Of a stretch of 64,000 nucleotides of DNA, positions 13,194 to 57,923 are shown piece after piece; position 1 is the stretch's first letter; every line of letters starts with the position of its first letter. A program made the translations under genes and the position numbers. The stretch covers positions 2,480,001 through 2,544,000 of the forward strand of contig CM039007.1 of assembly GCA_017499595.2 (NCBI GenBank), written 5' to 3'. Under the pieces are notes generated by a model. That model saw only the letters and a list, made by a program, of their open reading frames with translations, was not told where the DNA came from and made no database searches. The DNA comes from Psilocybe cubensis. Taxonomy: Eukaryota.

Positions 13194-14069
13194 ATGTCTG
13201 CCAACCTCTCCAAGCTCGAAGCCCACCTCGCCACCAGGTCCTACGTTGAAGGGTGAGTATTTGGTGTTATGCGTGTAGTATTAGAATACTGACCTTCATC
13301 GAATCAGATACACCCCTTCCCAGGCCGATGTGACCGTCTTCAAGGCAATTTCTGCTGCTCCTGATGCTGCCGCCAACCCCCACGTTTCCAGGTGGTACAA
13401 ACACATTCAATCCTATGCTGCGGAGCATGCTTCTCTTCCCGGATCTAGCACAGCCGGTGAGGCGTTTGTCGGTGGAGCCGAGGCTGCCCCTGCTGCTGCT
13501 GCCGATGCAGAGGATGATGAGGAGATTGATCTCTTCGGTTCCGATGAGGAAGAAGATGCCGAGGCCGAGAAGCTCAAGGCTGAACGTGTTGCTGCATACA
13601 ATGCTAAGAAGGCCAACAAGCCAAAGGCTGTCGCTAAGGCATGTACATTTTGCTGGATCTCGTTTAGGGCTCCCATTTACCACCCTATTATTCAAGTCCG
13701 TCGTTACCATGGATGTGAAGCCCTGGGATGATGAGACTGACATGGCTGCTCTGGAGGCTGCTGTCCGCTCGATCGAGCAGGATGGCCTTCTCTGGGGTGC
13801 CAGCAAGCTCGTTCCCATTGGTTACGGTATCAAGAAGCTGCAGATCACCCTTGTCGTTGGTACGTTATTCCAGTCTTCCGCTTTGATTTTATCGTGTATT
13901 CAAAATATCTCTCAGAGGACGAGAAGGTCTCTACAGATGAGCTCCAGGAGAAGATCGCTGAGTTCGAGGATTATGTCCAAAGCACTGATATCTCTGCTAT
14001 GCAAAGTAAGTCGACAGCTCTTATCGATACGTCTATGTCTAATTGTGATGCGTTGCAATAGAACTCTAA
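13194..14069 (+). CDS. EFB1: Translation elongation factor 1-beta (eEF1B guanine-nucleotide exchange subunit)
   Basis: Exons 13194-13252, 13308-13638, 13697-13859, 13916-14005 and 14062-14069. Hallmarks: [71 protein letters not shown]. Confidence 0.97.
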
Positions 14070-15162
14070 GTACCGTGGATTATCATGCATAGAATGACAT
14101 TCCTTGTTTGTACACATACCTAAGTACCATTCTCGGTGATGATGAACATGAACACAAGTGCCTTACATCCATTTTTGAGTCCCTTTCGTCAACCATGTAT
14201 CCATGGTATCTGCTGCATCGGGAAGACAAAGAATTTCGTCTTAACAGCTTTCCCTCGGTCTCTACTTTTCTTACATACGTTAAAACAGTAACAGAGCCAA
14301 GTAACAGGACCACGGGTATCAGGATTTAAGCATCTACTGGGTCCTCGTGTTCATGTGTTGGGGAGAAGGTTTCATTTCTGACTGGGGCAGTTCATTGGAT
14401 AACCAAATGGGCTCATGGGGACATGAACACAAAGGCTATCCAACATTATCGGATATTAAATGCCCACAAACGCTAGTGTTAGGTATGTGATTTGCTGCCT
14501 CTAGGACGATGTGATACATCTACTGAACGTTCATTTCTGTATCCCTATATTTGGAAAGTTCACCCTGAGCTATACTTTCACGAAATTGGGGGAAGACGCA
14601 ACTCCGAAGCCAACGCGGTCCCTCCCGGAGTCCGCCAATTCCACACATGGGTGGGATTTCCTTCGTGTACAATTACAATGCAGATGGCCATTACTCAAAT
14701 GGGTGAGCTGATGATATTTAATATAACCTCGTTTCTTACGACTGACGTATCATATACCAATGTTTAGTGCCAGGACACATGCCTTGTATTGGTTCTCAAC
14801 TCTAATGCTATTCGTCCCTTTCATTTAGGTTTTCAGGACCTATTTATGGCAACATTCTTCTATACACCTGCACGGGTCTGGACTCAACGTCTTTGTGGTG
14901 CGCTGATTGTAAATTTTGCCCAGTTGTCCCTTCGTTATCTCCCCAACTGCTGGTTATACCAGCGGCACTAAGATCTGATCCGCAGATTGCAGATCTCACT
15001 ATCAGCGTCATATGCCGCAAGTTAAACTGAAACCTACCTCAAACCGCCTTGCGTGTATTAACATGGTGCCTATGAGCTGCACATTCTCTTTATGGGCGCT
15101 ATCGTTGTATCCTTTAAAAACTGGCATTCTGGTTAATAAGTTAGAGTCACCAAACGCAAAAT

Positions 15163-22347: not shown

Positions 22348-25300
22348 AGTCATAGCTGAGCTATAATTCATGATCTTATGATCTAAACTTCGGGGCGTGC
22401 CCTGCAGGCTTTTTTACTTACTCACATCTCCGCCCCCTCGAGCTTACCAAGTTATCTTTTTCCTCATTACTTGCTATTTTTTTCTAAAGTATATACCCCA
22501 AGGGTAGTTCGCGGGCGGTAAATCATTATTATCAGTGAAATAACATTACTGGTACATACATACATCACATCACATCTGGCATTGATCTATTCAAGGATTA
22601 TTTATCAGTAGAGTCGTGTGGCATGGCATAACTTACAGGATTTGCAATTACACAAGATACGGTTTCTTCCTCTGAATTCGGGAACCATGACGGAGTGTTC
22701 CAGACCCAGGAACCCTACAAGCGTCATAGAAAGAATGTGAATTTGCAAAGGAAAAAAAGCTTGAAGCAAGATTGGAATTTGAATATACGTGCCAGGTCCA
22801 ATCATGACGCATCAACTGTACTTAACAACGTACAACGCACGCTTGTACAGTGGACATACATAGCGTTCTATAAAAAGCTTTACACGCGTTCCGGCGTTTT
22901 GCGACCGAAGGAAATTCAGAACCCGCAGATGGTCACGAAAGGTTCACAAACGCAGGTACAGTACCAGCTTCTTGGAACCGGAAGGACACAGAGATCAAGT
23001 GGGACGGCGCGGCTGAGAAGAAGTTTTGGATGTGTTTTGCCCATTTTTGTTGTACTTTTTTGCGGGTCTTTTTTGCCGTGGAATGATACCAGAATTAAAC
23101 GTTGAATATGAATGCCGGATTGCATGGCGGAGCTCAGGCTCAGACAGCTTACGCTTATTTACAGTTAGTTAAAAAATAGAAAGCGGGAATTTGAGGATCA
23201 GCTCTATCTACGTGTATGGAAAACCTGATAGATAGGAAGTGAAAAAATGAGCTCCACAAAAGCGACTTGTGACTCTACCTCAGGCTCCAGGAGAACTTCT
23301 CCCGTGTTGACAAAATGCATTATACAGCAATCAATCTTTTCATTGTACTCGCTATGGAAATGCACCCCCGATCATACTCGTTTGACATGGACAGTTGAGT
23401 TTAGGGTGGCATTGTATGTGTGTGTGCAGATAAGTGGGAGATTTGACGGTGGCCAATGAGACGCTCTTGGTTACGTTTTCTTTCTAATCTCAGGGTTCTT
23501 TGCGGAGCGGTGCATACACAGGCGTCCATACTCGGCCCCTCATGATTGCAACTTGCTAATAAAGCATAAAAAGAAAGAAAGATCTGAATGCTTACCTCAG
23601 TGATCCTGGCGCAAAGAGTTGACCCGGGTCTAATTAAACAGTTCTGAAGTAAGCAAGGGCAGAGAGGGTCCAATAACTCAACGGGTATCTTCGGTGTATT
23701 GTTTCTCACTTGAGATACATTTCTCCAGATGATTGTAAAATCAGTTGAAACAGGGCTTCGATCAATAGCCCTGTTTCTTGACTATCCTCCCAAAATAAAT
23801 CGCGACCACTTGTGTGTGTACCACTACTACGGTACACCCTCTCAAGCGGAGAGTTGAGTGGGCGTGTGTAGACGCCGAGTTTCTGGAAACATGCCTGTGA
23901 GGATCTGTAGCACGTTAGTTAATACAGTAACATACCAAGTAAATGTAAATATTAACAACGCCGTGATACGACCATACCATACTGGTTTTCACCCCCAATT
24001 GTAGGTTATACCAATCGCTAATTGTTAGTCGAAAACAGGCTTGGAACCCTCCGAATTCAAGGTCGCCGTTTTCCTTTGCAACAACCGTGTCTTCCCTAAC
24101 AGGTCAATGCTATTGTCGGAGAGCGCCGCCTACCTAACCTTCCCATGCCCACACTTAAATGCCACTGGCAGTCTAATATTCCCTTTCGAGACACCGCGGT
24201 TAGAAGCCGCAGAAGTCTATGCGGAAAAGTAGCAAAGTTATGACTTGGCACTGGACAAAATCACTGTACACGGAATTTTTTCAGAGCGGTTTGAGGAGTC
24301 TTATTTTCTCAAGGAGCGTTAGTCGGCACATCGTTTGATGCAATCTTCTCTTCTCTTCTCTTCGTCGACGCTCCTCGGATGAGCTAAGAGAGGGTTCATG
24401 AGCAACCTGAAAGCGCTAGAGTTCCAGTAAACCCTAGGCATTCATGTATCATATCTGGAGGGTGAAATCTCTTCAGATCCCCGTTTGTCTTTTCATCCTT
24501 TGCTCTGGGGCATGAGCAAACTCAATAACTACGGAGTTGGAGCCACCTACTACAGCACACATAACTTCCCTGAGTTCTAAACACTTTACATGTATGTCAA
24601 TATTAATCTAATCGCGTCATGCTACCACGGACACCTTCTTCTCGGTAGCACCGACAGGCTAACACTACGCACCAAATTGCAGCAGCCCATGAGAAGCGGG
24701 AATTACATAGGCGTGTGGGTTGCAGTAACCCAGTGTGTGCGCGCTTTACTTGAGTAAGTAAGTAGAAGGAGCATTCAGAAGACGACGTGAGGCCTGAAAG
24801 TCTAGACCGGCCTCGACAGCGAACCCTGACCCATTCAAATCCCTTGCTCGCGTCTGTCAGCTATGAATGTACTTAGTTGAATTAATGTTTTGATGCGTCT
24901 ATGCTAAATATAATGACATCAAAAAGACCTTGGCTGGCACAAACGGGCACGCATTGGATTTCAGTGGTACAAGCCTGCCGTTCATTATTCGGCACAAAAC
25001 TATACATATTATGTCCCCTTCTGTCATATGTGCGAGTGAAAGCTTTTAATTTCGCACTTTCCTAAAATGCCGAACATTGTGTGATGGATGTAAACTGTAG
25101 CAACGTCTATTCAGTGATCTGATTTCATTTCCCTACTTTTCATATATCACACGGGTGAGAGAGAGATGAATTTGAATTTGACTAGCGAAAGCTATGCTTA
25201 GTAGGCTCAGGTTCCGGGGAGCGTCAGAGTCAGTGAGGATGTAAAGTCAAGTGCCGACGTTGATCAAACCAATGGGATACCGTATGCATATCGCACAGAA

Positions 25301-27048
25301 GATTTGAAAAGAAGACGGCAATGAGCAGCCTTATTTTACACTCCTGGTTGAGACCCAGAATTTGAATTGCTGTTAGCCATTAGCTATAGATCTTTTACAC
25401 AATCACACCGTCAGTCCTCTCCGTTTACTTCCCCAAATTCACCACACGCCCGGCTATTGGTGACCACAATATTTATTTGGGTAGAAGTATTGTAAATGCA
25501 CAGCATAATGCCATAATAGCCCCTTTTTCGATGGTTGGGGTACGTGTGTTTGTAGTCCGAAGGCATTTACGCAGACGAGGGAGTACTAACATCGGAATCT
25601 CAGACAATGATTAAATCGAGAAAGCGCAGTTCAATAATGCTCCTATCTTTCGATAATGGACCCAAGGGTCTAGAGCCTTGGATTCTAGTACGCAGCACCT
25701 CGTGTGAGGGAGCCGTCTTTGAATAAATTCATGTAGTAGAAACAATTACAGTGTAGACGATCCAGTTACCAAGGATCCATTACTCAGACAGATTCCATCA
25801 TTAGTTGGTACAAGTTGGTGTATAGTCACGGATTACGAGACGTAGATAAATGTCACTGAGGTAGTTTATGTCAGCAATGGTAGGCATAACCGTGCCAAGC
25901 GAACACAAGGCAGTATCTATATATCAGAGATTTGTGGTGTTCTCCCATTGCCAGAAGAGAGGAGAAAATCGATTGACACTATTGAAATTAAATACTCTAT
26001 TTGGAAATTGGAGGATCCCCTATGTCCAGGGACGAACAGTGTGGCGCATGCATCGAATCCACGAAGTGTCCATATATGGCGCTCGACTGACCCATTATGG
26101 TATCCGATTCGCTTGGCGGGGAGCTGCGTCGGCATCAGATCGACATATCCTGTCAATTCCACATTCATATACTAAATGACCTCAGTATATAAATGCACAA
26201 GTGCCACAAGACCCTGGGAAGACTATGGTCGGGTGAGCATGATATTGAAAAGACCTTTTGCCACTCGGACGCCCAGAATATTCGGTCTTTGTCGTGCTAT
26301 AAAAACGGTGTTAAGCAAAATGTCAGTAATGATCTTCATATTGAGAAGCACTTAACATGATCCGTTCATAAATCAACCGTCGTATCCAAAATATTGAGCT
26401 GAAAGGCAGATATCGTGTTTCCAAATGCACTCGTCTTGGGAATGTCGGGGGAGCAACTTTGTGGGGTCAGACAATGTAATTTGGTATCCGACTTAGTAGA
26501 GAAAGTATTATTGTAATTAATTATATAGATACATTATGATTATAACGAAGTGAGGAACATCAGTACAGTTGAAGTCATACATGCATCAGAATTATAGCAG
26601 CGAAGTGAAAGTACATGATATAAGGTTTACATAGTGAATTGGTAACATAGTTGCTAAGTAGTCGTAGATTAGGGCTGAATTACAGTAGAAGTGGAGTTTA
26701 GACATAGATATGAATGACAAGACTCCCATACCGCCTTAAATAGGCTCGATAGGTGCGCATTCGAATAACAATGGATACATGGTTGTGAAAACAACAAAAA
26801 TAAACAATAGCGCGAAAAACAACAAGTAGAACATAGACACTGAATGAAGCCCTTTTTGACAGACATGGGTGGTCTTCATGATACAGGCCAAATAGACCAA
26901 GAATAAGAACCAGGGGGTCATACAAGTATGACCACAGGCCTGCAGTCGGTCAACCGAAGAATCGGCAGTTAATTCCACTGTATCAGTGGAGAAAAATCGT
27001 GAGAAAAGGTGTAAATCAAACAAATAGAAAGACACACCGCTAGAGCTT

Positions 27049-27195
27049 TTATCCAGCACAGTTGACGCAGGTAACTGCTTGTGTACGTACGTTTTCACTT
27101 GGCGATGCGCATTTCACAGTGCCCGGCCTGCAGTAAATCACCTTGTAAGTAACGGCATTACAGTTTTTACAGCGAATTTCCTGTGTAGTGCACAT
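27049..27195 (-). CDS. Small 48-aa 7-Cys protein (putative metal-binding), cassette copy 1
   Basis: MCTTQEIRCKNCNAVTYKVIYCRPGTVKCASPSENVRTQAVTCVNCAG. Cys spacing matches the ORF at 30706-30903, which sits in the equivalent position. Confidence 0.6.
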   Translation of the reverse strand: MCTTQEIRCKNCNAVTYKVIYCRPGTVKCASPSENVRTQAVTCVNCAG

Positions 27196-27594
27196 AGAGA
27201 TACGAGTGGGTTGTAGCACCATCTTTAAGACATTGAACACTCTTTAAAATGTCAATTTTGGCGCCAATATTGTTCAATAGGTGTCGAAAAGGTCGGGAGT
27301 ATGTCCCTACTGAGAGCCATAACTTTCCTAATGTGACCATTTCCCGAGCCATGCATTTATCGCCCACTAGGCCTCGATATAACTCAGTGGACACACAGTT
27401 TAAAAGGGCGGTAAGTCCATTTCAAGCCCTCGAGATCAGAGCTCGGTGGATGAACCGAAAGAATGGAAAGTCTATGTTAAGATCAGTCATTATTCAAGCT
27501 CCGCCTTTTCCAGATGTTGTGGGCTTGTCGTGATTCAACACGAGGCTTACTATCTACCTAATCTGCACTTGACCTACGACCCACAACACTCCAA

Positions 27595-29032
27595 ATGAAT
27601 CTCCCAAGATATCCTGACCTCACGATAAAGCGAATCCCGACACACTCTCCCGTACATCCTAATACAGTGGCATTCCTTGGCGGAGATGCATGCGTTTTAC
27701 GTCCTATATATGTCGTGCTAAAGGATGGTATTCAAGTGTGGATTGAAGGACCCCCGCTCGACCCAGAAGCTACCCATCTTCCCTCGGTAGAGGAATTGGA
27801 TAATACAAAATTAAAACAATTGAATGACGAGTATCGGCGGTACCTGTTGATAATTGTACGTCCGGAATTGTTGACTTCTTTTGTTGAATGTCTGTGTGGG
27901 AATCAAATCTTAAATCATACCTTGCAGGAGGACCTCACTCAATCCATTGACTTCGGTGCATCTCAGATGGCATACCTAACGAAAGACACCTATGGCGAAT
28001 ATTGCATAGTACATGACTACCGGAGGATCATGCAGGTCTCATGTCCAATGTGGGGCCCTAAAATATACATCGATGATGTTAACATCACGGTTTGGGGCAC
28101 ACATTTTGATAGGCACCGTGGGATATGGAATGGGAGGGAAGTTGGTCAGTCGAAGAAACCGTTAGGCTAATTGACAACACTAATAGTTACTTTTCCACGC
28201 AGATATCTTCTACGCATTCCAGGAGTATGATCGCATCCTCCTGAACCGCGTAATGTACGTCTTACGCCATCTTGAAGGCACCGATTGCGATGTCACCTTC
28301 GAGTTCTACGGGCATCTATTGGATAAGGACGAAACAATTCTTGGATATGTCGCCGAAGCTGCCTGGGGAAGGAATATTGGTCTTGGAGACGAAGAACTTG
28401 TGTCAAGCGCCCTCAAACGCCTCGAGAGTCTGGGTTGCGTGTATCGGGCTGTTTCAAGCAACATGTTCCTTGTATCTGATGGGAAGTTACGCTTATTAAT
28501 GCCTCAGAACATCGAACGATACAATTGTCCGGAACTTCTCAAAAAGAATGCAGAATTTCACCACAACTGGGCATTAGATGAGCTCTTTGACGAATTCCGG
28601 AATTATGGCTCATATGGACTCTTGAGGCTCCCTCCTCTTCGGCTGATAATGGATCCCATGGATGTGAAGTATCTTCGCATGCTCCCTACTCCTGAGCGTT
28701 TATTTAATCACTCATGGCGTGGAGTGTTTCTAACCACGTGCAAGTTGACTTGTGTCGAAGAGGAGGATCAACAGAATGACCGAGTTACAACAAGCTCCAG
28801 AAGGTCACTCAGAAAAAGAAGATATTTCCTTCATGTTGACCCTGTCGATATCAACGCCTACCAACGAGGCCTTACCATATCACCTCCATCAAGAATTACC
28901 AACTTCCATCCCTATCCGCGCCGGAAAAAGGTTTTGCAAGAATTATCTAGCACCGAGGGCACGGAAAGCATAGTCGAAGGATCGACCAGCGATTTGGATG
29001 TGGTCTACGGTGCTCTCAAGAGGATTTATTGA
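27595..29032 (+). CDS. Kinase-fold-like protein with degenerate catalytic motifs (putative pseudokinase), copy A
   Basis: Three exons (introns about 27857-27927 and 28145-28202). RHRGIWNGREVDI, FYGHLL..ILGYVAE, ALKRLESLGCVYRAVSSNMFLVSDGKLRLL. Clear paralog of 31316-32800. Confidence 0.8.
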
Positions 29033-30705
29033 CAGCGGTATTACCCCATAATCGCGTCTTTTCGTTCATATCAACGAAGATCGTCACTAAATTGAAATCC
29101 CAACTACTTTACTACCAATCGTTAGGTCAAATGAAACAAGATTTAAGTCATTATATTCATGATTTATTTTGACCTCGTCATTATGACTTTCTACAATGTA
29201 ATCGAAATGATTATCAATAAGTAGGCATTTGTACTATTATAGGGATACCTTAACACATGCATTTCCCGGGTTAACTTGAAGAGACACCGAAAGCTTTGGT
29301 ATACCGCGCGGATTTCAACAGATTTCAACCGACTAGCATATGACCCGGTTATAATTTAATAAGACATTCGGTCGATTTACAAGAATTTTGCCGACTGTAG
29401 TGCACTTGGATAGAAATCATGGGCGCAATTCCCCTTTATGAACTATCGCATAGGTTACTTGCAATATTCTCAAGATTCATAACTCTGGACTTTTTTTATG
29501 TGATGGGACACCGTTTTTTTCCGACAGTCTTATATGAGTTCAGTCCCAAACGTTGAACGTTGATGGCTGGTCGGTTATAATAAAGATCACGTCATTCGGT
29601 TTGATCAAGTTCTCGGAAATCTCCGACGGAGAATGAAGTCGGAGTTGAGCTTCCTAGAGAAATCGGAAACGTCGTGATTACATACCCATTCGTTATTAAG
29701 CTCTTAACCAGCATTTCTGACATTGAAAGTCAATATTACGAAGTAAAATAGGTTTGGTCATAAACAGCTCAGCTAAAAGAGTACCATTTGGCAGCTAAAG
29801 CTTAATTTGACAGCAGTTTTGTTCTCCGATCAGCGTGAAATCTCCGGCGCAAGCTGGAGCCGAGATAAGAAACATCGTTTGCTACTGGAGCGTTTGATTC
29901 CAACAACTTGCTTTCACGAAGCGTTTGACTCCGACTTTTATCTCCGCTTCCGGCCGCTCCTACTCGAAATCTTGATAATCGAGTGGATCGCGGGGTTAAT
30001 ATCGTGCCATATACCAAACTACCTGAATTATAATTGAGTAACTATAGTTGAAAGTAAAGCTTGTGTACACTAGAGAAGTAGATTTCAGCATGCCAAGTAT
30101 GTCGCCTTGCTGAAATTTAATCATGATGTCTACAAGAAGTATGTTTCCAACAGTAGCCGTCTGCTGAAAGTGGTAGAAAATAGGCGGCACGAGTATAGTT
30201 CTAAGCCAATGCATTGAGCCTTAAAAAAACCTTTGAACTTTCAAAGTAGACTGAGAAGCATCAGGGTCGAGGTCGCGCGCGCATGAGAAGATTACATCGC
30301 CGATTTGTTGGCAGTTTGGCCTTGGGCGTTGTGGAAGATGCATGAGGACTCCGTCAACTGCACCTTTTAGGCCTTGAATACACAATGGCTTTTCCGACTT
30401 GGGCATTCTCCAGACCCAGGTTACAGACATACCCCAACCGTCAAATTATGTGGTGAGATGTACAGCTTAAAGCCGTTCTCATCACGGTTTTCCTTGAACA
30501 AGCCTTGGCCAGCCGTGCCCTGAGTTTGAAAAACGGCGCAATACCACGATGGACTTGAGTTAGAGCCAAAGATTGACGAACTAATACAGAGAAATAAAAT
30601 GGATTTAGTGAGATGTAAGACTTTGTGTGGCTGTGAGTGACCTTCATACTTCTTTCGATGATGATCCTGAGGAATTTTTGACATATTCTATTATTGGGTT
30701 GATCA

Positions 30706-30903
30706 TTAAATAGCTATCATGTAATGGGACAAAGGCTTACTATGACGGGCGCTCTCGGTACATGACGAGCATATATCTAGCGTTGAGACCCCAAAAGTTC
30801 GATTCATGCAAAATTTAGGCACTATCTTTAGCTGGCAAGGGGTCGTTACTGACCGAAAAGCTATTCCACACCTAGAACATTGATAGGTTAGCTCGTAGCA
30901 CAT
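30706..30903 (-). CDS. Small 65-aa 7-Cys protein (putative metal-binding), cassette copy 2
   Basis: MCYELTYQCSRCGIAFRSVTTPCQLKIVPKFCMNRTFGVSTLDICSSCTESARH. Same MC-x6-CxxC...CxxC skeleton as 27049-27195. Confidence 0.6.
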   Translation of the reverse strand: MCYELTYQCSRCGIAFRSVTTPCQLKIVPKFCMNRTFGVSTLDICSSCTESARHSKPLSHYMIAI

Positions 30904-31315
30904 TAGTCTTACAGAAAATAATGGGTTCATCCAGTAGATAGACATACCAAACATTGGAATTGAACAGGATTTAATACTAAACGTCTCAGATGCACGTTTG
31001 GGGTGGTTAGCCAGTGGAGGATCATTATCGTTCTCATTCTCAGCCTCGAGGTTTATTTGTGCGGTGGTATATTCATTATTACCTGTGCGGTCTACATGGG
31101 ATGGCGACAAATGAGTGAAATGAGCCTGACTCCCTTCCTGAGAACTTGTCATTTCCGAGTCGTGGACTCTATAGTGGTGAACAAATTTGGATCTCCGATT
31201 CAGAACTCCCGATAATCCAAATGCTGATCGATCTTGAACCTCTTGAAAACACGAGGTATTTATCCAAGTCATTTTGTCGCCAATCTGCTCCTACGGATTC
31301 AGAATATTCAGGATC

Positions 31316-32800
31316 ATGCCATTGGTGTACGAGTCGAAAACAACCCTACAGAGTATTCCTCCGAAATCCCCAGTAGTTCCCCACGGTATAGCGTACATTG
31401 GAGGAGTTGTGGACGCATGGAAACCTCAATTTGTGCTGTTGAAAAACAATCGTGAATTCACCATTCAAGCCCCGCCTCTTGAGCCAAAGGTTACGAAAAG
31501 CTCCAACGAATCTGAAGATGAATTTGTAGCGAAGTATGTTGAGCAGTTCCAACGATATCTTGCGGTGCTGGTATGACATCTGGGTTGATGATTGGAATTA
31601 CTGCTAATCAGACATATGACAGGAATGCTTACTTTCTATCATTGATTTCGATGCCACAGACATGGCTTACATGATAGAAGACTCCAACGAGGACTATCAA
31701 ATCATTCCAGGGCGGAAGGCTCTCAGGAATGTTTCCTGTCCTCTTTGGATGCATAAAATCTACGTAGATGAGGTAAATATAACGGTTTGGGGTAGTGATT
31801 ACGATGGTCGTCGTGGAATATGGGAAGGGAAAGAAGTAGGTTAGTTGAAATGTCCAACTAGGGCGTTAAGCACCTTTATACTGACATGACATCAGATATA
31901 TCTTACGCCCTTCACAAGGATCTAGATCGATTCGTATTGAATCGTGCGATGCAAGGACTTCGAGCTCTAGAAGGGAGGAATTGTGACCTTTTATTCGAGG
32001 TGTATGGCCACCTGGTCGATAGAGACGAAACAATTGTGGGACTTGTTACCGAAGCAGCCAAGGGAAGAGTGGTCACTCCCGACGATAAAGACCTGATTCA
32101 AGCATCCCTCAAGGCTCTCGAGCACGCCGGATGTGTATACACTGCAGTTGCAAGCAACCATTTTCTCATAACCGATGGGAAGTTGCGTTTGCTGCAGCTG
32201 AACGCCATCATTCCGTATCCTGATCAGGAGCAATGTAGAAAGGAGGCCGCATATTTTCATGACTGGGCACTAGATGAACTCATCGAAGAACTTCGGGAAT
32301 ACGGAAAAACGGGCCGCGGTCATGGGCCACCAGGTCGATTGGTGAGAGACCCGTATGCTATCACATACCTGCGATTTCTTCCCCCACCAGAGCGCCCTCT
32401 CCGCACGAACCTCAATTTTACGCCTCTTCCCATGCCTGTGGCGCTGCTGATGATATCCAGGTACCTCAGAGGAGAGAAATATCCTATGCCTTTGGAAGAC
32501 CCGGATGATCTGCTTGCAAGAAGAAAGCAGAGTAGGAAGAATCGTTATCTCATTTACAGAGACCCTGAGGAAGACTGTGAGGCGGCGGACAAACAGGGTT
32601 TATCAACCTTCAAAAGTATAGACGGTGATATTTCTCCTTACAGACCAGCGCGTAGCACTCGTATATGGCGTCTCTCAGGACGAACACCTTATACAAGGCA
32701 TCTGCATGCAGAGAGGGGGCTCCCTGCACTATCTAGCACAGAAGGGATAGCAAGCATTACAGAGGTTGTAGATGACGTCGTAAAAGGTAAAAGTGTATAG
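31316..32800 (+). CDS. Kinase-fold-like protein with degenerate catalytic motifs (putative pseudokinase), copy B
   Basis: Three exons with introns at the same protein positions as copy A. RRGIWEGKEVDI, VYGHLVDRDETIVGLVTE, LKALEHAGCVYTAVASNHFLITDGKLRLL. Confidence 0.8.
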
Positions 32801-35959: not shown

Positions 35960-36225
35960 GTATTTCTTTCTTTATTTTCTTTTTTGCATGTCTGGTCATT
36001 AGGACTACTTCACGACCTTTACGACGATGACGATGATTAACGAATTTAGTAATGATCTGATGCGCTTTGTTTAAAAATAACTCTTTATTGGTAAATGACG
36101 CGTTTGCAGCAGTTTGTAACCTGAGTGACCTGTGAACAAGATCAGTGTCTTCTCTTGTAACACTCTCCATCTTTTTGGTTCTTTCACCGCTACAAGTATT
36201 TCCTGTGATCTGATCTGCTGGAACT

Positions 36226-37149
36226 ATGAATTCCTCCAATAAACCACCAGCTACCCCCTTGCCGGATGAGTCGGCGGGTGCACAAGCATCGCCGCCAGAG
36301 TCCTCGACACATACCACACAGGAGACAGATGCCACTATCGTTGAAGAGCAGGAATCAATTCCTGCTCTTTCAAGGTGGTCATCTCCCGCAATTCCTCAAA
36401 GTACATGGTGCGCCTCCGACTTCATGGTAGGGGTAGGGATGGTTATCATCCAGCAAAAAACAGAGAAGATAGTCTTGCTCTACTCATCGAAGTGGAAATA
36501 TTACTTCTTTCCGCGTGGCAGAAAGGATGTCGGCGAGACCCTACAACAAGCCGCATTACGAGAGGCATACGAGGAGGTAAGTACCGAAGGCGTTTCTTTT
36601 ACCCAGCATGTCTGATTGACCTCACACTGCAAGTCGGGATATCGCGTCGATTTCATGCCACTGGCAATCCCAACCCGACAACCCCACTCACCAGAGACAC
36701 GAAACAGGCGAAGTCATTTCAACACAGAATCTATCTATATGACCACCACGAACTGGAGGGCTGGAAGGAGTGGTCCCACTGACCACGGAGGGGTATATTT
36801 GACGTCCTGGTTCGTTGGACAGATACCTGAAGATGCGGTATGTCTCCGCTATCAATGCATCAAATGAGGAATTGGTTGATCTAATCTTTCTTCTGATATC
36901 TTATCTTCCCCGCACCTTCAGGTATGCGAATCTGGCACGCGTATGCCCGATGAAGACCACTTTACAACGCACTTGTTATCCTACGAAGAGGTCAGAAACC
37001 TCATCTGGGGAACAGAAGTAAAATTATTTGATTATGTCTGGGCTGTATACCAACATACAAAAACCATACTACAACAGGAAGAATCTCAGCGGGCACAACA
37101 ACTACGTCGATTTCAAATCACCAAAAACCGCCCAGTACGCCGGCCGTAG
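36226..37149 (+). CDS. Nudix hydrolase family protein, paralog 1
   Basis: Nudix box GRKDVGETLQQAALREAYEE-SGY spans intron 1. Three exons. Confidence 0.88.
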
Positions 37150-40525: not shown

Positions 40526-42335
40526 ATGGATCCGCCAGCTGCGTCCACTTCTGGTAACTCGCAGACCGGCGGTCCGGTAAATCTAGGCGTCAGGAAACGC
40601 GTTGACTCCAATCCTGAATTGGTTGTCGAGTCCAATACATCCACTAATCAAACAAAGAGGCCCAGATTGTCGTCTTCTAGTCTATTCGATCTCAGCTTAG
40701 ACCTATCCCTCGATTCAGATGCCTTCTCTGTTTCTAGCAGCCGGCCGAGGCCTCGTCCATCTGCCATGGCGATTCCCTCCAGTTATGGCCGCCCTGGTTC
40801 TATCGGCTTCGGTGTAAGTCACAACTCTACTTCGACAGTAATAATTCCCTCATGACTATCAATATACAGGCTGATAGGATTGTGAGCCGCAGTATAAGCC
40901 GCAGCTCCCTGTCTCTATTCGATACAAGTTTCGAGGACTTGAGCAACACCAGTATCGAATACACACCGTCTTTACGCCTTGACCGACCTTTAAGTCGACA
41001 CTCATCATTTACGGGTTCCCGCCACGGAAGCCCTTTTGCAAGCAGGGAATTCCTGCCTGTTTCCGATTCGGACGACCCAACTGTGAGACAAATGCGGCTC
41101 GCAGCGAATGAAATTATGTTGCCGGATCCCTTGTCTAGATACCCGGAATCGTCTGCTAAGCACTGGATGCGCAATACGCGTACCACCATTGACTATACGC
41201 CCTCCGCCCCCAATCAGCCATCCGCTCGTCTCCTAGGATGTTCTGTCAACAACTTCGTCTACTTCACCCGCGGAAATCGTGTTCATTATAAGAACATTAA
41301 TGTCAACGCTAACGAAGAGATTGGACAGCTCATGAAGCTGAAGGAGAGTCATGGGAGCCTGCGCGCTCTGGAGGTCAACACCACGTCCCAGCCAGACGTT
41401 ATTGCTATCGGGACGAGCAAAGGCTGCATCCAGCTCTGGGATGTCAAAGCTAAGAAGATGACAGCGTCATGGCACTCTAGCAAAGAAATTTCTGCAATGG
41501 CTTGGAATGGCCCAATCTTGACGATCGGCAGCCTCAAGGGCGTTATACGCAACTACGACACGCGTCTGCCACATTCAAAGATCAAGGAACAATCCCGCAA
41601 ATTCTGTCGTCACGAAGGCGAAATTACAACCCTCCATTGGAGCGTTGACGGAAAGTACCTTGCTAGCGGCGATGCCATCGGCCAGGTCTTGTGCTGGGAA
41701 AATGGGCTTGGACCTCCTATGCAGGTCGGTGAATCGGTTCATCGCCGCAGCAAGAAAATCCAGCAAAGTGGCAAGATATCGGTTAGTGTTTTTTTCCTAG
41801 ATCTCCTGTCCTGTCGCGATACTGACTACTGCCTTCGTCTGTAGTCTGTGGCATGGTGCCCTTGGCAGCCCAAAGTTCTCGCAACTGGAGACATCCGAGG
41901 CATATTGCGGATTTGGAATGTCAGCGAGAATAAGAACTCCAACGCCCTGCCCTCTAAATTAGACGTCAAGTCCGTTATGACGGGCATTCACTTCTCTCCT
42001 CAATGTAAGGAGGTTCTGACGACACAAGGCCCACCTATCGGCGAGCCCATGCCTATGGATTTCAACAACCTCAAGCCGTGGTTTGAAAACTGTCTCGCCG
42101 TCCATTCGTTCCCGTCGTTCTCCACGGTGACCACTATGCGGCTTAGTATCGACAAACCAATCGGATACAGTGTCCTTGATGGTACCGGTACTCGATTGGT
42201 ATACCAAACACCATCGGACGGCAAAATTAATGTCTGCGAGGTGTGTCAAAGCGAAAGGAGCCACCCAAGCTCAAGAAACGCGGAAGCATGTTGAGCATCA
42301 CTAGCTCTGATTCCGCATACTCTCAGATTCGTTGA
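40526..42335 (+). CDS. Divergent Cdc20/Fizzy-family WD40 APC/C activator-like protein (3' end ambiguous)
   Basis: Introns 40814-40869 and 41782-41844. WD repeats IAIGTSKGCIQLWDV, SAMAWNGPILTIGS, HEGEITTLHWSVDGKYLASGD, AWCPWQPKVLATG, IHFSPQCKEVLTT. An IR-stop ends at 42335 in a different frame. Confidence 0.75.
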
Positions 42336-49430: not shown

Positions 49431-50171
49431 TTATGATTTGCCATTGGTTTCTACTTCCATTTTATCATCGTCGTTGCTGATATCGTCCGCGGAGGGTACT
49501 GGTGCAGAGGTTGCAGCACCAAGGGCTACAGAAGTACCAGGCTGTTGAGCAACATCCCTGGGAAGAGTAAGGCTCAGCGCGACGAAAGCGATGCATAGGC
49601 CATAGATACACACCATTTGATGCTGAAAGATGTCACACGAGGTTTCGTACTAATGTCTCTCACCAGGCGATTAAACATAATTTGTGGGGGTGGGGTGATG
49701 TTCATCTCTTCATTGTCGTATTCCGTATTCTGGTAGTATCCCACTCGCACAAATTCTTGGTCTTTGTAAGATCCTGTTAGGATGAGAGCTGACACTCCGA
49801 GCACATCATCCGTGGGTATTCGCGAGGGATCAGGCGCACAGCCTTCAAATTCGAATGAGTTGACTCCCTTTGGAACGGGACCAACAAGACAATCATCGAG
49901 TTCTTGATCCAGCTCTTCGTCGCCAGGACATGATACGAAAATAAGCCTCCACTCGAGATCTTCAAAGTAATCAGAATTTCGAGTCTGAATATCCAAAAAT
50001 GCGAGACATACCATCTTCTAGTGGTGCCATGCATTCAAAGGTGACACGAAATCGGTATACATCCGAGAAGCGCGCTGGGTTGTTCATAAACTCGACATTC
50101 TGGAAACCCGAGGCGTCAATCCTAATGAATCTTTGAAAGGAAGGTAAATGTACCCTGATCGTGACAGCCAT
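49431..50171 (-). CDS. ASF1: Histone chaperone Asf1
   Basis: NNPARF..FRVTFECMAPLEDDLEWRLIFV..DQELDDCLVGPVPKGVNSFEFE..GVSALILTGSYKDQEFVRVGYY..KPRVTSFSIKWD. Confidence 0.95.
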
Positions 50172-50796: not shown

Positions 50797-53700
50797 ATGT
50801 CCGATACGATACAAATCGACACCACCATCCCTGATGTCCAGATACTGCCCGACACTAATCCCTCATCGACAGTACAAATACCAGTAATTGAAGCTCCAGA
50901 ATCCATTTTGGCTGTTGATCAGCTCGACGGCCCTTCTTTAGCATCTACTCTCAAATTACCGGAAACTTCTCCTCAATATCTGTCACCATCTCTACCTGTT
51001 GCCCCGACACCCCATGTCTTCTCACTTGCCGACCTGCGTGAAGAAAATGGAGAGTTGGATTTGGGCCCTGATGTAGCTTTGAGCGACATCAGCGTTGCAC
51101 GTATGTTCTCTTATCACCCTGTTGATGGTCAACTCTCACCGTCACCACCCCATCAGCTGATGGCAGTTTCATTGAAACGTCGTCTGGACCGACAGCTCAT
51201 ATTCTGAAGAGAAGATACGACCAGTTGGCAGGCGTTGGTCCTTCCGTTCGTTCTCCCTATGCTATAACAGCTTTCGTAAATCAACATGGGAAATCAATGT
51301 ACCGCATTGGGTCCGTATATTGCTTCCTTGAGCATCCGTTTTACGAGAACTGACGATGCACCTTAGCCATCGCGGCAAAAACTCTGCTCCTGCTGCCTCT
51401 GCAGCTGATGCCGACGACCTTTTAGCGCAACCAAAGAACTCAAGTGACGCCTCGCATTCTCCTCGTACACAGCGCCGGTCTCGGCTGAGCATGCATTTTC
51501 TCCAACCCGGAATGTTTGCCAAAACCTCTATCCCCCCAACTAGTCGTCCTCCTATTGTATCTAATACTCCTTCAATATCCAAGAAGCTCCGGAAGACTCG
51601 GTCCATACCCGATATGTCTAGCTCCGAACCCACCATCACTTCTGCGCCCACATTTGCAGTTACAGGTAGGGGTCACTCGCAGAGTGTTACTGCCATGGAC
51701 ATTCCTCGACTTCCCATGCCATTTGCCTCATATCCTCCTCCTCGTCCAATCGACGCATTTGCAGAATTGTTGGATTGGTTCAACCCTTTGACCTCAACAG
51801 CCGACTTTTCCAACCAAAGCCTATTCACCCCTGATACGTCATCTCCAGATGCCCCTAAAACTCGTCCGACAGTACCACAACCATTTGGTCCGAATGTCGT
51901 TTTCAAGTCGCCAGCTATCAAGGTCGCACCAAACCCTCCACCCAGGCATCTGCGAGAAATGCAATCTTTTGAGTCTGGGCGAACGGCTCGTCAATGTGAT
52001 TCCCAAGAGAGTCTGCCAGGCAGCGATTCACCCGTGCCTTCCTCTGATGATGCGTCGGGTACGGCTGGTGAAAGGAGTCGTCCTGCCTCAGCTATTCGTT
52101 TAAGTTTACTCTCTGAGGTTTCTATTGATTCCGACACGCATAGTGATCCGCCTGCTGAAGCGGAACCTGATGTGGCACCAATGGCCGAGGGTAATCGACT
52201 GTCAACTCAATATTCCACCGAAGTCTTCAATGTGCTCCAAACGTACCGTGGTCTTCCTATGTTTGAAAAATTGGTGCCGGAAATCGACAACGACAACGTG
52301 ATCAAACTTTCTTTGGCTGCCGACCAGAGTGCAGCCCCGAGAGACGACCCTCGTTTCGTTCTTTGGGGAGAGACGCAAGTTGAGTCTGAGGCGGACGATT
52401 TCAATTCGAAATCGCGCGACAGCTTGACGGATGTTTCGTCGTCCAATCCGTCTTCGAGCATATCAAAAAGACGAAGCAGCAAAGTTTCCAAGTTCAAGTC
52501 CCCCGACGCTTCAGCCGCCAGTCTTCCCAAGCAGGGGCAGCGGGTGCTTTTGGCAGCTACAATCGAACGTTGGATCGCGCAGCTCACCAGCGACTTGAAT
52601 TACGACGAACTCCTTAACTTCTTTCTGACATATCGGACGTATGTCCCAGCTGTGGATCTTTGCCATTTGTTCATATGTCGCTTCCATTGGGCACTTCAGA
52701 CTGGCGCTTCCAGACAAGACGAAACTGTCCGTCGCATTGTTCGTGTGCGAACGTTTGTCGCTATTCGATATTGGCTGTTGACTTTTTTCACTGTCGACTT
52801 TATACCGAATCGTGAATTAAGGTTGTTAATTGCGGACTGGCTGAACACTTTGATCGAGGATCCGATATTAAAGAAACACAGTGATGCGACCGTAAGATAT
52901 TATCACGCTTACTGGACCTTAGATCTAACATTGCCATGAATCTTACAGGATATTGTCAAGAGGTTGATCAAAGTTGCAAAGGAATGCAAACGGGCCCACA
53001 TCCGCACTGAAAAACCTAAAGAAAACAAGTCTAGCTCAGACAATGAAGAACGCCCTGTCGATCACTTACTGGGTAAAAGCTTCGCTGAGGCTATTCGGAA
53101 GTTACCTCAAGAAGACCACGATTCGATCCTCGACCTTGATTTTCTTCCGGACGAAGCTAAAACTGAAGAACTTTCCGGCTTCCCGATCGATTCAGCCAAC
53201 GCCCATCTCACAGCAGGCGCCGTTGGTGGTACCGTCCTTTCACCGAATCGGCCATCATCGCTTCCGCTTTCATCGTTCAACATTCTTCAACGCACGGACC
53301 ATGCTCCAGGACCAAGCGCAGATGTCGATTTGCCTTTCGTTGAGAATACGGCTCCCGTTCTTCTCGGCCACCACCATAGCGCCTTGTCGAGAGCTTTCGT
53401 CAGGACAATTGGCAGACTTGGGCGTTGGAAGCGTGTTTTGAACCAGAAGTCAGCGGTTCGTCCTGCCAACACCCTGGGTGCCTGTGGTGTTGGAGATCAA
53501 GCTTTCGATCTTGACCTCAACGCTGCTCGGGATCTTCTCACTGTAAACGGTGGCGTTGAGAACTACCTCAGGATGGTAGAACCTCCGGCCCCGAGGCCCA
53601 GCTCCTCCGAGATCATCGTTGCCCCTCTGGAAAGCCATTCTCGGACTCCTTCTCTCCTTGTTTTACCGCCATTGCCATCTGCACCACCAACTCCTTCAGT

Positions 53701-56621: not shown

Positions 56622-57923
56622 TTACAAAGCAACTACTTTCCCCTCCTGTACACTTGCTTCGATCGCATCTAAAAGACGATGGTGCTTGACGGCATCTTCA
56701 ATAGTGGCATAATCACCTCCAGGACCGTTGGAAAATGGCATCCATGCCTCGACGCACGATTCGACTGCGTTTCCAGAGGTCTCGAAGTCGACTTTCTTGC
56801 CGTTAAGATAGAGGTCTGGCTCGATCATGCTGGCCATAGCTCCCAATAAATTGTTCGACTCCATCCTTATTGTGCCTTCCTCTCCCTCAATCTCCCAGAC
56901 GTACTGACGTCGGCCTTCTGTCGAGGCATATCCCGTTCTCCACAGTATGTTAGCGAGAATACCACTTTTAAGCACGCCGGATATGGCGTAGTGGTCAGGT
57001 TGATGATATGCCACGGTTTTTCCTGTTGGTTTGTGGGTACGGTCGAGCACGGTGAGCACAGGGTAGACATTGGTTGCTATTGCAGAGACTTTAACAAAGT
57101 CACCGAGGACATGTGTGAGTGTATCGAGCTGATGTCCAATCGGTACCGTGAGCATTGTAGCACCTATTTTTATTTCGAAACATGAGATTGAATGAAAAGG
57201 AAATCTAGTAGTAACAGTTGGCACAAACCATTATTCTTGTCAAGTGTGTATTCGTAATAATCAAATGTGAATGGCGGAAAGGTTCCCGCTTCTCTCGGCA
57301 GATGTGCAATCTGAGAATAAAATGGATAATTAAAACATTGGAAAGAGAAGTTATTTGTAACTCACGACGTTGGTAGACCTGACCGTACCAACAACACCAG
57401 ACGACAAGATTTCCTTGACCTGTTATTCATAGGTTGAATGACTAATATTCAGGTAGAAAAAGACACATACCTTGCGAACGACGACAGAATGGCGTCCTTG
57501 AAGTCCAACGAGCGATCTGACTCCGTGTTCGCGAGCTGAAGAGGCGATTTCTTCCGTTTCTTTAGTTGATATCCCAGCGGGCCATTCAACAAAAAAGTCC
57601 TTCTTCGCCTCAATGGCGGAGAGAACAACCTCTTTGTGATGTGGTGCCTTTACCGAGATGGCGACGAGATTGACATCCTCATCGGAAGCTATGCGAGATG
57701 CGGGTCCAAAATACGATTTAATGTGATGGCCGACTTCCTTGGAATATTTATCGGCTGAAGCCAGGGATGAAGCTTCGGTTGTGGTTGACACAGCTACAAG
57801 ATCGTACTTGTCGCGCAACGACGGCTGGATAAGCGCGGGCGCAAGCGCCGTCGCTGCCCAGCCTGAGGTTGCAGACAAACCGATGAAGCCGACGTTGGTC
57901 TTCTGATTAGAGTATTCGACCAT
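56622..57923 (-). CDS. Gfo/Idh/MocA-family NAD(P)-binding oxidoreductase (Gal80-like)
   Basis: VGFIGLS..GWA, DVNLVAISVKAPHH, KDFFVEWP, VGLQGR, GHQLD, IEGEEGTI. Confidence 0.9.

What the first reader, a model, noticed from the sequence alone, without database searches (positions are those of the whole stretch)
27049..32800. Tandemly duplicated head-to-head cassette: 7-Cys micro-protein plus putative pseudokinase
Seen: two copies of the same layout, a tiny minus-strand ORF pointing away from a plus-strand kinase-fold gene. ATG-to-ATG distances are 400 bp (27195/27595) and 413 bp (30903/31316). The small ORFs share almost nothing except the Cys skeleton: MC-x6-CxxC-x9-C-x6-C-x13-CxxC versus MC-x6-CxxC-x10-C-x8-C-x12-CxxC. 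The large genes are diverged but keep their intron positions. Inference: pairing, orientation and spacing retained after this much divergence suggest a co-regulated two-part module. Possibilities include a cognate regulator/effector pair, a poison-antidote pair or an allorecognition pair. I do not recognise it as a described system, and annotation pipelines would probably miss the small ORFs.
Basis: partly seen in the sequence, partly recalled or inferred. Interest (0 to 1): 0.8.

Follow-up and report, generated by a model that had tools for sequence, protein, structure and literature searches.

The report
Duplicated pseudokinase plus unannotated Cys7 microprotein
In a mushroom (Psilocybe cubensis) genome, two neighbouring copies of a kinase-shaped but probably inactive protein each have a tiny, apparently unannotated seven-cysteine gene pointing the other way about 400 bases upstream; the tiny genes look real and selected, but whether they work together with the big genes is still unproven.

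Summary
The window is Psilocybe cubensis. The large genes are JR316_0011025 (435 aa) and JR316_0011026 (458 aa). They are sister paralogues, 41% identical, with both introns at the same positions and phases. Each has a minus-strand short ORF whose ATG lies 400 or 413 bp from the large gene's ATG. The two ORFs share Met plus seven Cys at nearly the same spacing and little else.

The skeleton occurs twice in the whole window and in 0 of 300 simulated windows. Synonymous sites of the large genes are saturated, and nothing else upstream aligns. The retained frame and cysteines therefore indicate selection on a protein. sORF B is unannotated (consecutive locus tags), and none of the seven start variants tried is in the protein collection.

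The large proteins belong to a Pfam-less, mainly Basidiomycota family (186 representatives). Their predicted fold is protein-kinase-like, but the positions of the HRD and DFG aspartates are not conserved, so "pseudokinase" is supported.

Functional coupling was not tested. No fungal genome DNA was available, the complex prediction gave no verdict, and no fused forms exist. Adjacency could simply be inherited from the duplication. The result is a moderately interesting lead, not a demonstrated system.

The parts
27049..27195 (-). sORF A: 48-aa basic Cys7 microprotein (stop at 27049-27051). An alternative in-frame start at 27222 would give 57 aa.
   Evidence: Searches give the ORF and Cys skeleton. 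One search gives pI 8.8 and the start-codon contexts. One search shows that the 48- and 57-aa forms are not in the protein collection. One search shows the skeleton is absent from 300 simulated windows.
27196..27594 (.). Intergenic A, 399 bp. This is the presumed shared (bidirectional) promoter region. The 9-mer AACACGAGG lies at 27537, 58 bp upstream of the gene A ATG.
   Evidence: One search gives the length. Searches show no alignable similarity to intergenic B apart from one 9-mer, which is not beyond chance as a count.
27595..27855 (+). Gene A (JR316_0011025) exon 1, followed by a 72-nt phase-0 intron at 27856-27927.
27928..28144 (+). Gene A exon 2, followed by a 58-nt phase-1 intron at 28145-28202.
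28203..29032 (+). Gene A exon 3, holding the kinase-like core and a disordered tail. The stop is at 29030-29032.
   Evidence: One search shows the model equals P0002 (435 aa). One search gives the protein sequence.
29033..30705 (.). Spacer of 1673 bp between the two cassettes. No feature was recognised and no gene is annotated here.
   Evidence: (consecutive locus tags), (no tandem repeats; no tRNA genes).
30706..30903 (-). sORF B: 65-aa basic Cys7 microprotein. An alternative in-frame start at 30930 would give 74 aa. The frame stays open to 31290.
   Evidence: One search shows 0 of 5 start variants of this ORF in the protein collection. One search shows it is not annotated between the neighbouring locus tags.
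30904..31315 (.). Intergenic B, 412 bp. The 9-mer AACACGAGG lies at 31248, 68 bp upstream of the gene B ATG.
31316..31570 (+). Gene B (JR316_0011026) exon 1, followed by a 52-nt phase-0 intron at 31571-31622.
31623..31839 (+). Gene B exon 2, followed by a 56-nt phase-1 intron at 31840-31895.
31896..32800 (+). Gene B exon 3, holding the kinase-like core and a disordered tail. The stop is at 32798-32800.
   Evidence: One search shows the model equals P0001 (458 aa). One search is the AF2 model: 10-residue block means are 84 or higher from residue 11 to 320, and 258 of 458 residues reach 90 or more.

Best explanation
SHOWN. This is a lineage-specific tandem duplication of a two-gene unit in Psilocybe cubensis.
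- Part 1 is a 435/458-aa member of a Pfam-less, mainly Basidiomycota protein family. It has a protein-kinase-like fold, closest to small APH/Kdo/RIO1-type atypical kinases.
- The positions of the HRD aspartate, the DFG aspartate and the candidate beta-3 lysine are not conserved in the family. It is therefore a pseudokinase or an enzyme with a non-canonical site.
- Part 2 is a divergently oriented 48-65-codon ORF about 400 bp upstream. sORF B is demonstrably unannotated.
- Part 2 encodes a basic (pI 8.8) microprotein. Only its start Met, seven Cys and a few other residues survived a divergence at which synonymous sites of the large genes are saturated. That points to purifying selection on a translated product.

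INFERRED.
- The two CxxC knuckles, about 30 residues apart, bind zinc, giving a zinc-ribbon-like fold.
- The microprotein and the pseudokinase are expressed from the shared ~400-bp intergenic region.
- The microprotein acts as a small metal-dependent binding partner or regulatory subunit of its own pseudokinase copy.
- Both pairs were kept after duplication because the partners diverged together.
For: Duplication and gene models:
- The models equal P0002 and P0001.
- A and B are 41% identical, E 2e-105.
- A and B are sisters, support 1.0, in a tree of 55 of the 150 listed representatives.
- Intron positions and phases are the same.

Reality of the sORFs:
- The skeleton is found only twice in the window, and in 0 of 300 simulated windows.
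- pS of the large genes is 0.74-0.76.
- Nothing else in the two upstream regions is similar, at protein or DNA level.
- In the Cys-anchored alignment, 12 of 47 positions are identical, and 8 of those are Met or Cys.

Large-gene fold and catalytic residues:
- The AF2 model has mean pLDDT 78.5, and 258 of 458 residues reach 90 or more.
- All 47 Foldseek PDB matches listed (ranks 1-50) are protein kinases, E 6e-5 to 7e-4.
- In the Atlas, the nearest clusters that carry a Pfam family carry APH, Kdo, RIO1, ABC1 or Pkinase. The best structural match has TM 0.74, normalised by the hit.
- HMMER aligns the family's '..lysal.asnilI..gkVRllnl' to 'IIYRDLKPENIML..GHVKLTDF' of S6K1.
- In 55 members, the HRD-Asp column (241) is led by Gly 14, Ala 10 and Ser 9, and Asp is not among the eight commonest residues. 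The DFG-Asp column (258) holds Asp in 11 of 55. The candidate Lys column (155) holds Lys in 15 of 55.

Pfam and zinc-ribbon leads:
- 0 of 55 members match any Pfam family better than E 0.027.
- For the sORFs, Pfam shows only insignificant matches to zinc-finger and zinc-ribbon families, E 0.15-3.6.
- The PDB profile gives only insignificant matches at CxxC segments, E 0.1-1.5.
Against: - Coupling is untested. Two neighbours copied together remain neighbours by default, so the layout alone does not show joint function.
- 0 of 150 family representatives carry a fused CxxC...CxxC module.
- The intergenic regions share nothing beyond chance. Shared 8-mers number 4 against 2.7 expected. The single shared 9-mer is matched or exceeded in 193 of 500 shuffles.
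- The codon-usage score of both sORFs is low, -0.12 and -0.15 per codon. Known exons score +0.07 to +0.24. The sORFs sit at the 2nd-3rd percentile of 531 stop-free ORFs of similar length. The Cys richness explains part of this.
- Start-codon contexts at the 'MC' Met are poor, with T or C at -3.
- No relative of the sORFs was found in the protein collection. The Atlas score of 0.88 is below its 0.9 line.
- The AF2 model of sORF A is unreliable, pLDDT 48.
- With only two sequences and saturated sites, the sORF dN/dS (pN 0.59, pS 0.69) is uninformative.
Confidence: 0.42

Rival explanations
1. The microproteins are real but functionally unrelated to the pseudokinases. The small gene simply lay next to the large one when the segment was duplicated. 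Both small copies are kept for a function of their own, for example a basic zinc-ribbon protein that binds nucleic acid or metal.
For: - Adjacency, orientation and roughly equal spacing are the default result of a segmental duplication.
- There are no fused forms in 0 of 150 family representatives.
- No promoter similarity was found.
- Both sORF proteins are basic, pI 8.8, as many nucleic-acid-binding zinc ribbons are (recalled).
Against: - Both members of both pairs were retained through a divergence with saturated synonymous sites. Redundant duplicates are usually lost.
- The intergenic length stayed at 399 versus 412 bp, while the intron lengths changed to 72/52 and 58/56.
Confidence: 0.3
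2. A rapidly co-diversifying recognition pair, either poison-antidote or allorecognition. Each microprotein matches only its own pseudokinase copy, and mismatch has a phenotype.
For: - Apart from Met and Cys, only 4 of 39 aligned sORF positions are identical, while the large-gene core keeps about 50% identity.
- One family representative (P0004) has a NACHT/NPHP3_N STAND NTPase domain fused or merged upstream, E 9e-29. That domain is typical of fungal non-self-recognition proteins (recalled).
Against: - No toxin-like domain is present.
- The neighbourhood is housekeeping genes: EF-1 beta, CDC20, ASF1, RasGEF and NUDIX.
- No population data were available.
- P0004 may be a merged gene model, because the family part starts at its own Met.
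Confidence: 0.08
3. A peptide precursor plus its modifying enzyme. The Cys/Ser/Thr-rich small ORF would be a substrate that the kinase-fold protein modifies through a non-canonical active site.
For: - The sORFs are rich in Cys and Ser/Thr: 7 Cys with 8 or 14 Ser+Thr.
- The family has its own invariant polar residues: D221 in 55 of 55, R215 in 53 of 55, H196 in 49 of 55 and D158 in 44 of 55. These could form a non-canonical site.
Against: - There is no leader/core organisation, since the Cys residues start at residue 2.
- There is no signal peptide, protease, transporter or cyclase gene nearby.
- The canonical catalytic residues are absent.
Confidence: 0.05
4. The small ORFs are not translated. 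The shared skeleton would be chance, or a by-product of some DNA- or RNA-level element.
For: - The codon-usage score is low.
- The start contexts are weak.
- The ORFs are not annotated.
- No homologues were found.
- All 7 Cys codons make the same TGC/TGT choice in both copies. This might hint at a nucleotide-level constraint.
Against: - The 7-Cys pattern occurred in 0 of 300 simulated windows and the six-Cys pattern in 1 of 300. In the real window both hits sit at the equivalent place and strand.
- What is conserved is in-frame codons for one amino acid, while the surrounding bases differ. That is a protein-level signature.
- BLASTN finds no similarity between the two upstream regions at any of the sORF positions.
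Confidence: 0.08

Closest known systems
Small atypical protein-kinase-like proteins of fungi (clusters carrying Pfam APH PF01636, Kdo PF06293 or RIO1 PF01163)
   Same: - They share the overall fold. The Atlas feature score is 0.96, and the structural TM is 0.74 (normalised by the hit) over query residues 3-328.
- All 47 Foldseek PDB matches listed are protein kinases.
   Different: - No Pfam kinase-clan model matches any of the 55 family members scanned or the exon translations.
- The HRD and DFG aspartate positions are not conserved.
- The family has a long disordered C-terminal tail.
Kinase plus small Cys4 metal-binding regulatory element: the CK2 alpha / CK2 beta zinc-finger subunit, and the rubredoxin-like domain of mycobacterial PknG (the roles of these elements are recalled, not tested)
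   Same: - A kinase-fold protein is associated with a small CxxC...CxxC metal-binding module.
- CK2 alpha and PknG are among the structural and sequence matches of the large protein.
   Different: - Here the Cys module is a separate, divergently encoded 48-65-aa product with no detectable sequence relation to CK2 beta or rubredoxin.
- The large protein lacks catalytic residues.
- Binding has not been shown.
Zinc-ribbon / Cys4 zinc-knuckle microproteins
   Same: - There are two CxxC knuckles separated by about 30 residues.
- The protein is small and basic.
- The low-confidence model has a beta-hairpin between the knuckles.
   Different: - There are three extra conserved Cys, at position 2 and two single ones between the knuckles.
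- No zinc-ribbon Pfam model reaches significance; the best is E 0.15.
Fungal copper metallothioneins with seven Cys (Neurospora / Agaricus type; recalled)
   Same: They are small, have seven cysteines and lack a signal peptide.
   Different: - There are no CxC motifs.
- Cys content is only 15% (7 of 48) and 11% (7 of 65).
- Aromatic and aliphatic residues are present.

Membership tests
Protein-kinase-like (PKL) superfamily (large genes) | Bilobal kinase fold | tested here: met
   - The AF2 model has mean pLDDT 78.5, with block means of 84 or higher over residues 11-320.
- All 47 Foldseek PDB matches listed are protein kinases, probability 1.00.
- Atlas structural matches are to kinase-clan clusters, with TM up to 0.74 normalised by the hit.
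Protein-kinase-like (PKL) superfamily (large genes) | Significant match to a kinase-clan sequence model (Pkinase, APH, Kdo, RIO1, ABC1) | tested here: not met
   - 0 of 55 members and 0 of 6 exon translations match.
- The profile search against PDB gave 68 matches up to E 10. The best is E 0.071, and 59 of the 60 listed are kinases, all at the same segment.
Active eukaryotic-type protein kinase | Conserved HRD Asp, DFG Asp and beta-3 Lys | tested here: not met
   - Column 241 is led by Gly 14, Ala 10 and Ser 9 of 55, and Asp is not among the eight commonest residues.
- Column 258 holds Asp in 11 of 55.
- Column 155 holds Lys in 15 of 55.
- The catalytic-loop Asn column 246 holds Asn in 24 of 55.
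- The Lys assignment is my guess from the model's strand order.
Pseudokinase | No phosphotransfer activity or nucleotide binding | not testable with these tools
   This needs biochemistry. The family has its own invariant D221 and R215, so a non-canonical activity is not excluded.
Zinc ribbon (small ORFs) | Two CxxC knuckles positioned to bind one zinc ion | tested here: inconclusive
   - The knuckles are present in both ORFs.
- Pfam zinc-ribbon and zinc-finger matches reach only E 0.15-3.6.
- The AF2 model has pLDDT 48.
- PDB matches reach only E 0.1-1.5.
Fungal metallothionein | Dense CxC/CxxC clusters, few or no aromatic residues, low-complexity Gly/Ser/Cys composition | tested here: not met
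   Direct reading shows no CxC motif, 11-15% Cys, and Tyr, Phe, Ile and Val present.
Basidiomycete lipopeptide pheromone precursor | C-terminal CaaX box | tested here: not met
   The C-termini are ...CVNCAG* and ...HYMIAI*.
Poison-antidote / toxin-antitoxin pair | One product is toxic and the other neutralises it | not testable with these tools
   No toxin-like domain was found. Testing this needs expression experiments.
Conserved two-gene module | The same pairing at homologous loci in other genomes | not testable with these tools
   - No fungal genome collection was available.
- The genome-contig scan (bacteria and archaea) found no relative; 13 pattern matches gave 0 confirmed.

The most novel reading that the evidence does not exclude
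The two cassettes are cognate microprotein-pseudokinase recognition pairs. A fast-evolving zinc-stabilised microprotein docks only on its own kinase-fold partner, and mismatch triggers a response. This would be a self/non-self or poison-antidote system of a kind not described in mushroom-forming fungi. A possible link to STAND/NACHT signalling is hinted at by the NACHT-fused relative P0004.
Probability: 0.07. Interest if true: 0.85.

Novelty: new variant of a known kind. Interest (0 to 1): 0.45.

Why it matters
If the small ORFs are translated, they are a clear example of selected microprotein genes that fungal annotation misses. sORF B has no locus tag between JR316_0011025 and JR316_0011026.

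They would also be the first functional handle on a family of at least 186 representative kinase-fold proteins that has no Pfam model and no known role.

If the pairing recurs at other family members, it would define a new microprotein-pseudokinase module in Agaricomycetes. That is a group in which the molecular basis of somatic recognition is largely unknown (recalled).

If the pairing does not recur, the finding reduces to an ordinary tandem duplication that happens to include an unannotated small gene.

Tried and rejected
- Complex prediction of the gene B protein (residues 1-330) with sORF B and one zinc gave no verdict. The three runs scored 0.75, 0.01 and 0.00, median 0.01 against a mark of 0.34. 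The alignment was not used and the partner's own fold was uncertain. This counts neither for nor against binding.
- The single-sequence AF2 model of sORF A had pLDDT 48 and is unusable.
- A word-indexed homologue search with the two-sORF alignment found no candidate among proteins of 26-114 aa. An exact look-up found 0 of 7 start variants.
- The Atlas search with sORF B gave a best score of 0.88, to unnamed Ascomycota clusters. That is below the tool's 0.9 line.
- Word-indexed searches for the large gene returned only 1 and 4 proteins. Taxon names for most of the family could therefore not be obtained.
- A scan of bacterial and archaeal genome contigs with a 7-sequence alignment found no relative. 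The 55-sequence alignment was too diverse for that tool.
- A six-frame and BLASTN comparison of the two upstream regions (24500-27594 against 29033-31315) found nothing better than E 0.012 for 13 residues.
- A search for shared k-mers in the two intergenic regions found no excess.
- Codon-usage scoring did not support coding, but it is confounded by the Cys content.
- dN/dS of the sORFs is uninformative because the sites are saturated.
- Literature: five full-text searches (listings and abstract starts only, no paper opened) turned up no description of such a pair or of this family.
- Readings rejected: metallothionein and pheromone precursor (see the membership tests), and a longer spliced gene. 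The GTACGT inside sORF A (27090-27085) would remove the conserved last CxxC. The 188-aa extended form of sORF B has no counterpart at A and would leave 43 bp between its own ATG and that of gene B.


Full report
**Identity of the window and gene models**

The third exon of the downstream large gene matches NCBI protein JR316_0011026 of Psilocybe cubensis (P0001, 458 aa) at 100%. The upstream large gene is JR316_0011025 (P0002, 435 aa).

My splice models are:
- Gene A: 27595-27855, 27928-28144, 28203-29032.
- Gene B: 31316-31570, 31623-31839, 31896-32800.

They translate letter for letter into P0002 and P0001. All four introns are GT...CAG, with lengths of 72 and 58 nt in A and 52 and 56 nt in B. 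Intron 1 is phase 0 and intron 2 is phase 1 at the same aligned positions. Exon 2 is 217 nt in both (216 nt, 72 whole codons).

The two proteins are 41% identical (E 2e-105). There is no third copy in the window.

**The observation**

- sORF A, 27049-27195, 48 aa.
- sORF B, 30706-30903, 65 aa.

They have the stated Cys skeletons and exactly seven Cys each. The ATG-to-ATG distances are 400 and 413 bp, and the intergenic lengths are 399 and 412 bp.

A loose six-Cys regular expression and a seven-Cys one with +-2 spacers each hit exactly twice in all six frames of the 64-kb window, and both hits are these ORFs. In 300 simulated 64-kb windows the seven-Cys pattern never occurred and the six-Cys pattern occurred once. 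Even the bare stop-free pattern CxxC-x20-40-CxxC occurs only at these two places in the real window, against a simulated mean of 0.59.

**Are the small ORFs selected?**

- Synonymous sites of the large genes are saturated. pS is 0.76 overall and 0.74 in the core.
- A six-frame and BLASTN comparison of the two upstream regions found nothing. Even the sORFs themselves were not detected.
- In a Cys-anchored alignment, 12 of 47 positions are identical: Met, seven Cys, three Val and one Thr.

A sequence drifting neutrally to that degree would not keep an open frame, the start codon and seven in-frame Cys codons at near-identical spacing. This is the strongest argument that a protein is made and selected.

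Evidence against, or not in support:
- The codon-usage score is low. It falls at the 2nd-3rd percentile of 531 stop-free ORFs of 45-80 codons, partly because Cys codons are rare in the training set.
- The -3 position of the 'MC' ATG is T or C.
- No relatives were found.
- The single-sequence model is unreliable.

The start is uncertain. Both ORFs have another in-frame ATG exactly nine codons upstream (27222 and 30930), and the one at 27222 has a good context.

On annotation, the consecutive locus tags leave no annotated gene between A and B. None of the seven start variants is in the 15-billion-protein collection.

**The large genes**

- No Pfam family matches the exon translations, or any of 55 family members better than E 0.027.
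- A full HMMER scan of 1.84 billion representatives found 186 relatives at E <= 1e-3 and 108 at E <= 1e-10.
- The Atlas places the protein's own cluster (146 members) mainly in Basidiomycota.
- With a 55-sequence alignment (A1, chosen from the 150 listed hits for near-full length), AlphaFold2 gave mean pLDDT 78.5. In that model 258 of 458 residues reach 90 or more, and the tail from about residue 327 is disordered.
- All 47 Foldseek matches listed against the PDB (ranks 1-50) are protein kinases, E 6e-5 to 7e-4.
- Atlas feature and structure searches point to fungal APH/Kdo/RIO1-type atypical kinases, with TM 0.74 normalised by the hit over residues 3-328.
- A profile search against PDB sequences is insignificant (best E 0.071). 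However, 59 of the 60 matches listed are kinases, all aligned at the same segment.

In the S6K1 alignment, 'YRD..N' and 'DF' of the kinase face family columns that are not conserved:
- Column 241: Gly 14, Ala 10 and Ser 9 of 55. Asp is not among the eight commonest residues.
- Column 258: Asp in 11 of 55.
- Column 246: Asn in 24 of 55.
- Column 155, the candidate beta-3 Lys: Lys in 15 of 55.

'Kinase fold without canonical catalytic residues' is therefore supported. The family has its own invariant G206 and D221 and near-invariant R215, W152, W280 and F287, so an unconventional activity cannot be excluded.

**Age and nature of the duplication**

In a FastTree of the 55 aligned representatives (362 columns with fewer than 30% gaps), P0001 and P0002 are sisters with support 1.0. 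The duplication is therefore lineage-specific, but old enough for synonymous saturation. The small ORF was part of the duplicated unit.

**Is it a functional module?**

This is the part I could not test. No fungal genome DNA was available.

- No family representative carries a fused CxxC...CxxC module (0 of 150).
- The two intergenic regions share no more k-mers than shuffles do.
- The one shared 9-mer, AACACGAGG, lies 58 and 68 bp upstream of the two large-gene ATGs. That is a lead only.
- Neighbours are housekeeping genes: EF-1 beta, NUDIX, CDC20/Fizzy, ASF1, RasGEF and a Gal80-like oxidoreductase.

Layout retention is the default after a segmental duplication. What is not default is that both small ORFs and both large genes survived, and that the intergenic length stayed within 3% while the intron lengths drifted.

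**Working model**

The microprotein is a basic (pI 8.8) zinc-ribbon-like protein. It is co-expressed with, and binds, its own pseudokinase copy. This is functionally comparable to the Cys4 element of CK2 beta or the rubredoxin-like domain of PknG (the roles of both are recalled).

I put this at about 0.4, and the 'unrelated neighbours' rival at about 0.3.

**Literature**

Five full-text searches were read only as listings and abstract starts. None showed a paper describing this family or such a pair. No paper was opened and no supplements were seen.

**Verdict**

The 'pseudokinase' label is supported. The small ORFs are probably real, unannotated microprotein genes. The 'co-regulated module' and the more exotic readings remain untested.

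- Novelty: a new variant of known kinds, namely a kinase-fold protein and a Cys-knuckle microprotein.
- Interest: 0.45.

Noticed in passing
27052-27195 (-) and 30709-30903 (-): All seven Cys codons make the same synonymous choice in both sORFs (TGC, TGT, TGT, TGC, TGC, TGC, TGT). At conserved two-fold-degenerate residues of the large genes only 32 of 58 codons are identical. That is roughly a 1-2% coincidence and is unexplained.
   Followed up: partly
27222 and 30930 (-): Both sORFs have a further in-frame ATG exactly nine codons upstream of the 'MC' Met, giving 57- and 74-aa forms. The one at 27222 has A at -3 and G at +4.
   Followed up: partly
30706-31290 (-): The reading frame of sORF B stays open for 194 codons. 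Its first ATG is at 31272, leaving 43 bp between that ATG and the ATG of gene B. Nothing comparable exists at sORF A, and the extension has no Pfam match.
   Followed up: partly
27090-27085 (-) and 30740-30735 (-): There are splice-donor-like hexamers inside or at the end of the small ORFs. GTACGT in sORF A lies before the last CxxC. GTAAGC in sORF B lies after the last CxxC. An alternative C-terminus for sORF B cannot be excluded.
   Followed up: no
27537-27545 and 31248-31256 (+): The 9-mer AACACGAGG is shared, 58 and 68 bp upstream of the ATGs of gene A and gene B, and is followed by T/A-rich sequence. A single shared 9-mer is not beyond chance (193 of 500 shuffles), but the positions agree.
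   Followed up: partly
protein P0004 (relative from the representative library, not in the window): One relative (707 aa) has a NACHT/NPHP3_N STAND NTPase domain (E 9e-29) in front of the complete family domain. The other nine long or multi-stretch relatives scanned have no Pfam domain. It may be a merged gene model.
   Followed up: partly
C-terminal tails of the family (gene A about residues 390-397): A basic-x(2-5)-Pro-Tyr motif occurs in the last 160 residues of 31 of 55 family members, against 7 of 55 in the rest of the protein. The Pro is near-invariant. It resembles a PY-type nuclear import signal (recalled).
   Followed up: partly
36214-36612 (+) and 62082-62618 (+): There are two separate NUDIX-domain ORFs in the window, E 6e-9 and 6e-8.
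   Followed up: no
13285-14089 (+), 40738-42291 (+), 49577-50017 (-), 51332-55791 (+), 56625-57935 (-): The surrounding genes are housekeeping genes: EF-1 beta, CDC20/Fizzy WD40, ASF1 histone chaperone, a RasGEF and a Gal80-like/GFO_IDH_MocA oxidoreductase. The window has no tRNA genes, and 24-35 kb has no tandem repeats.
   Followed up: no
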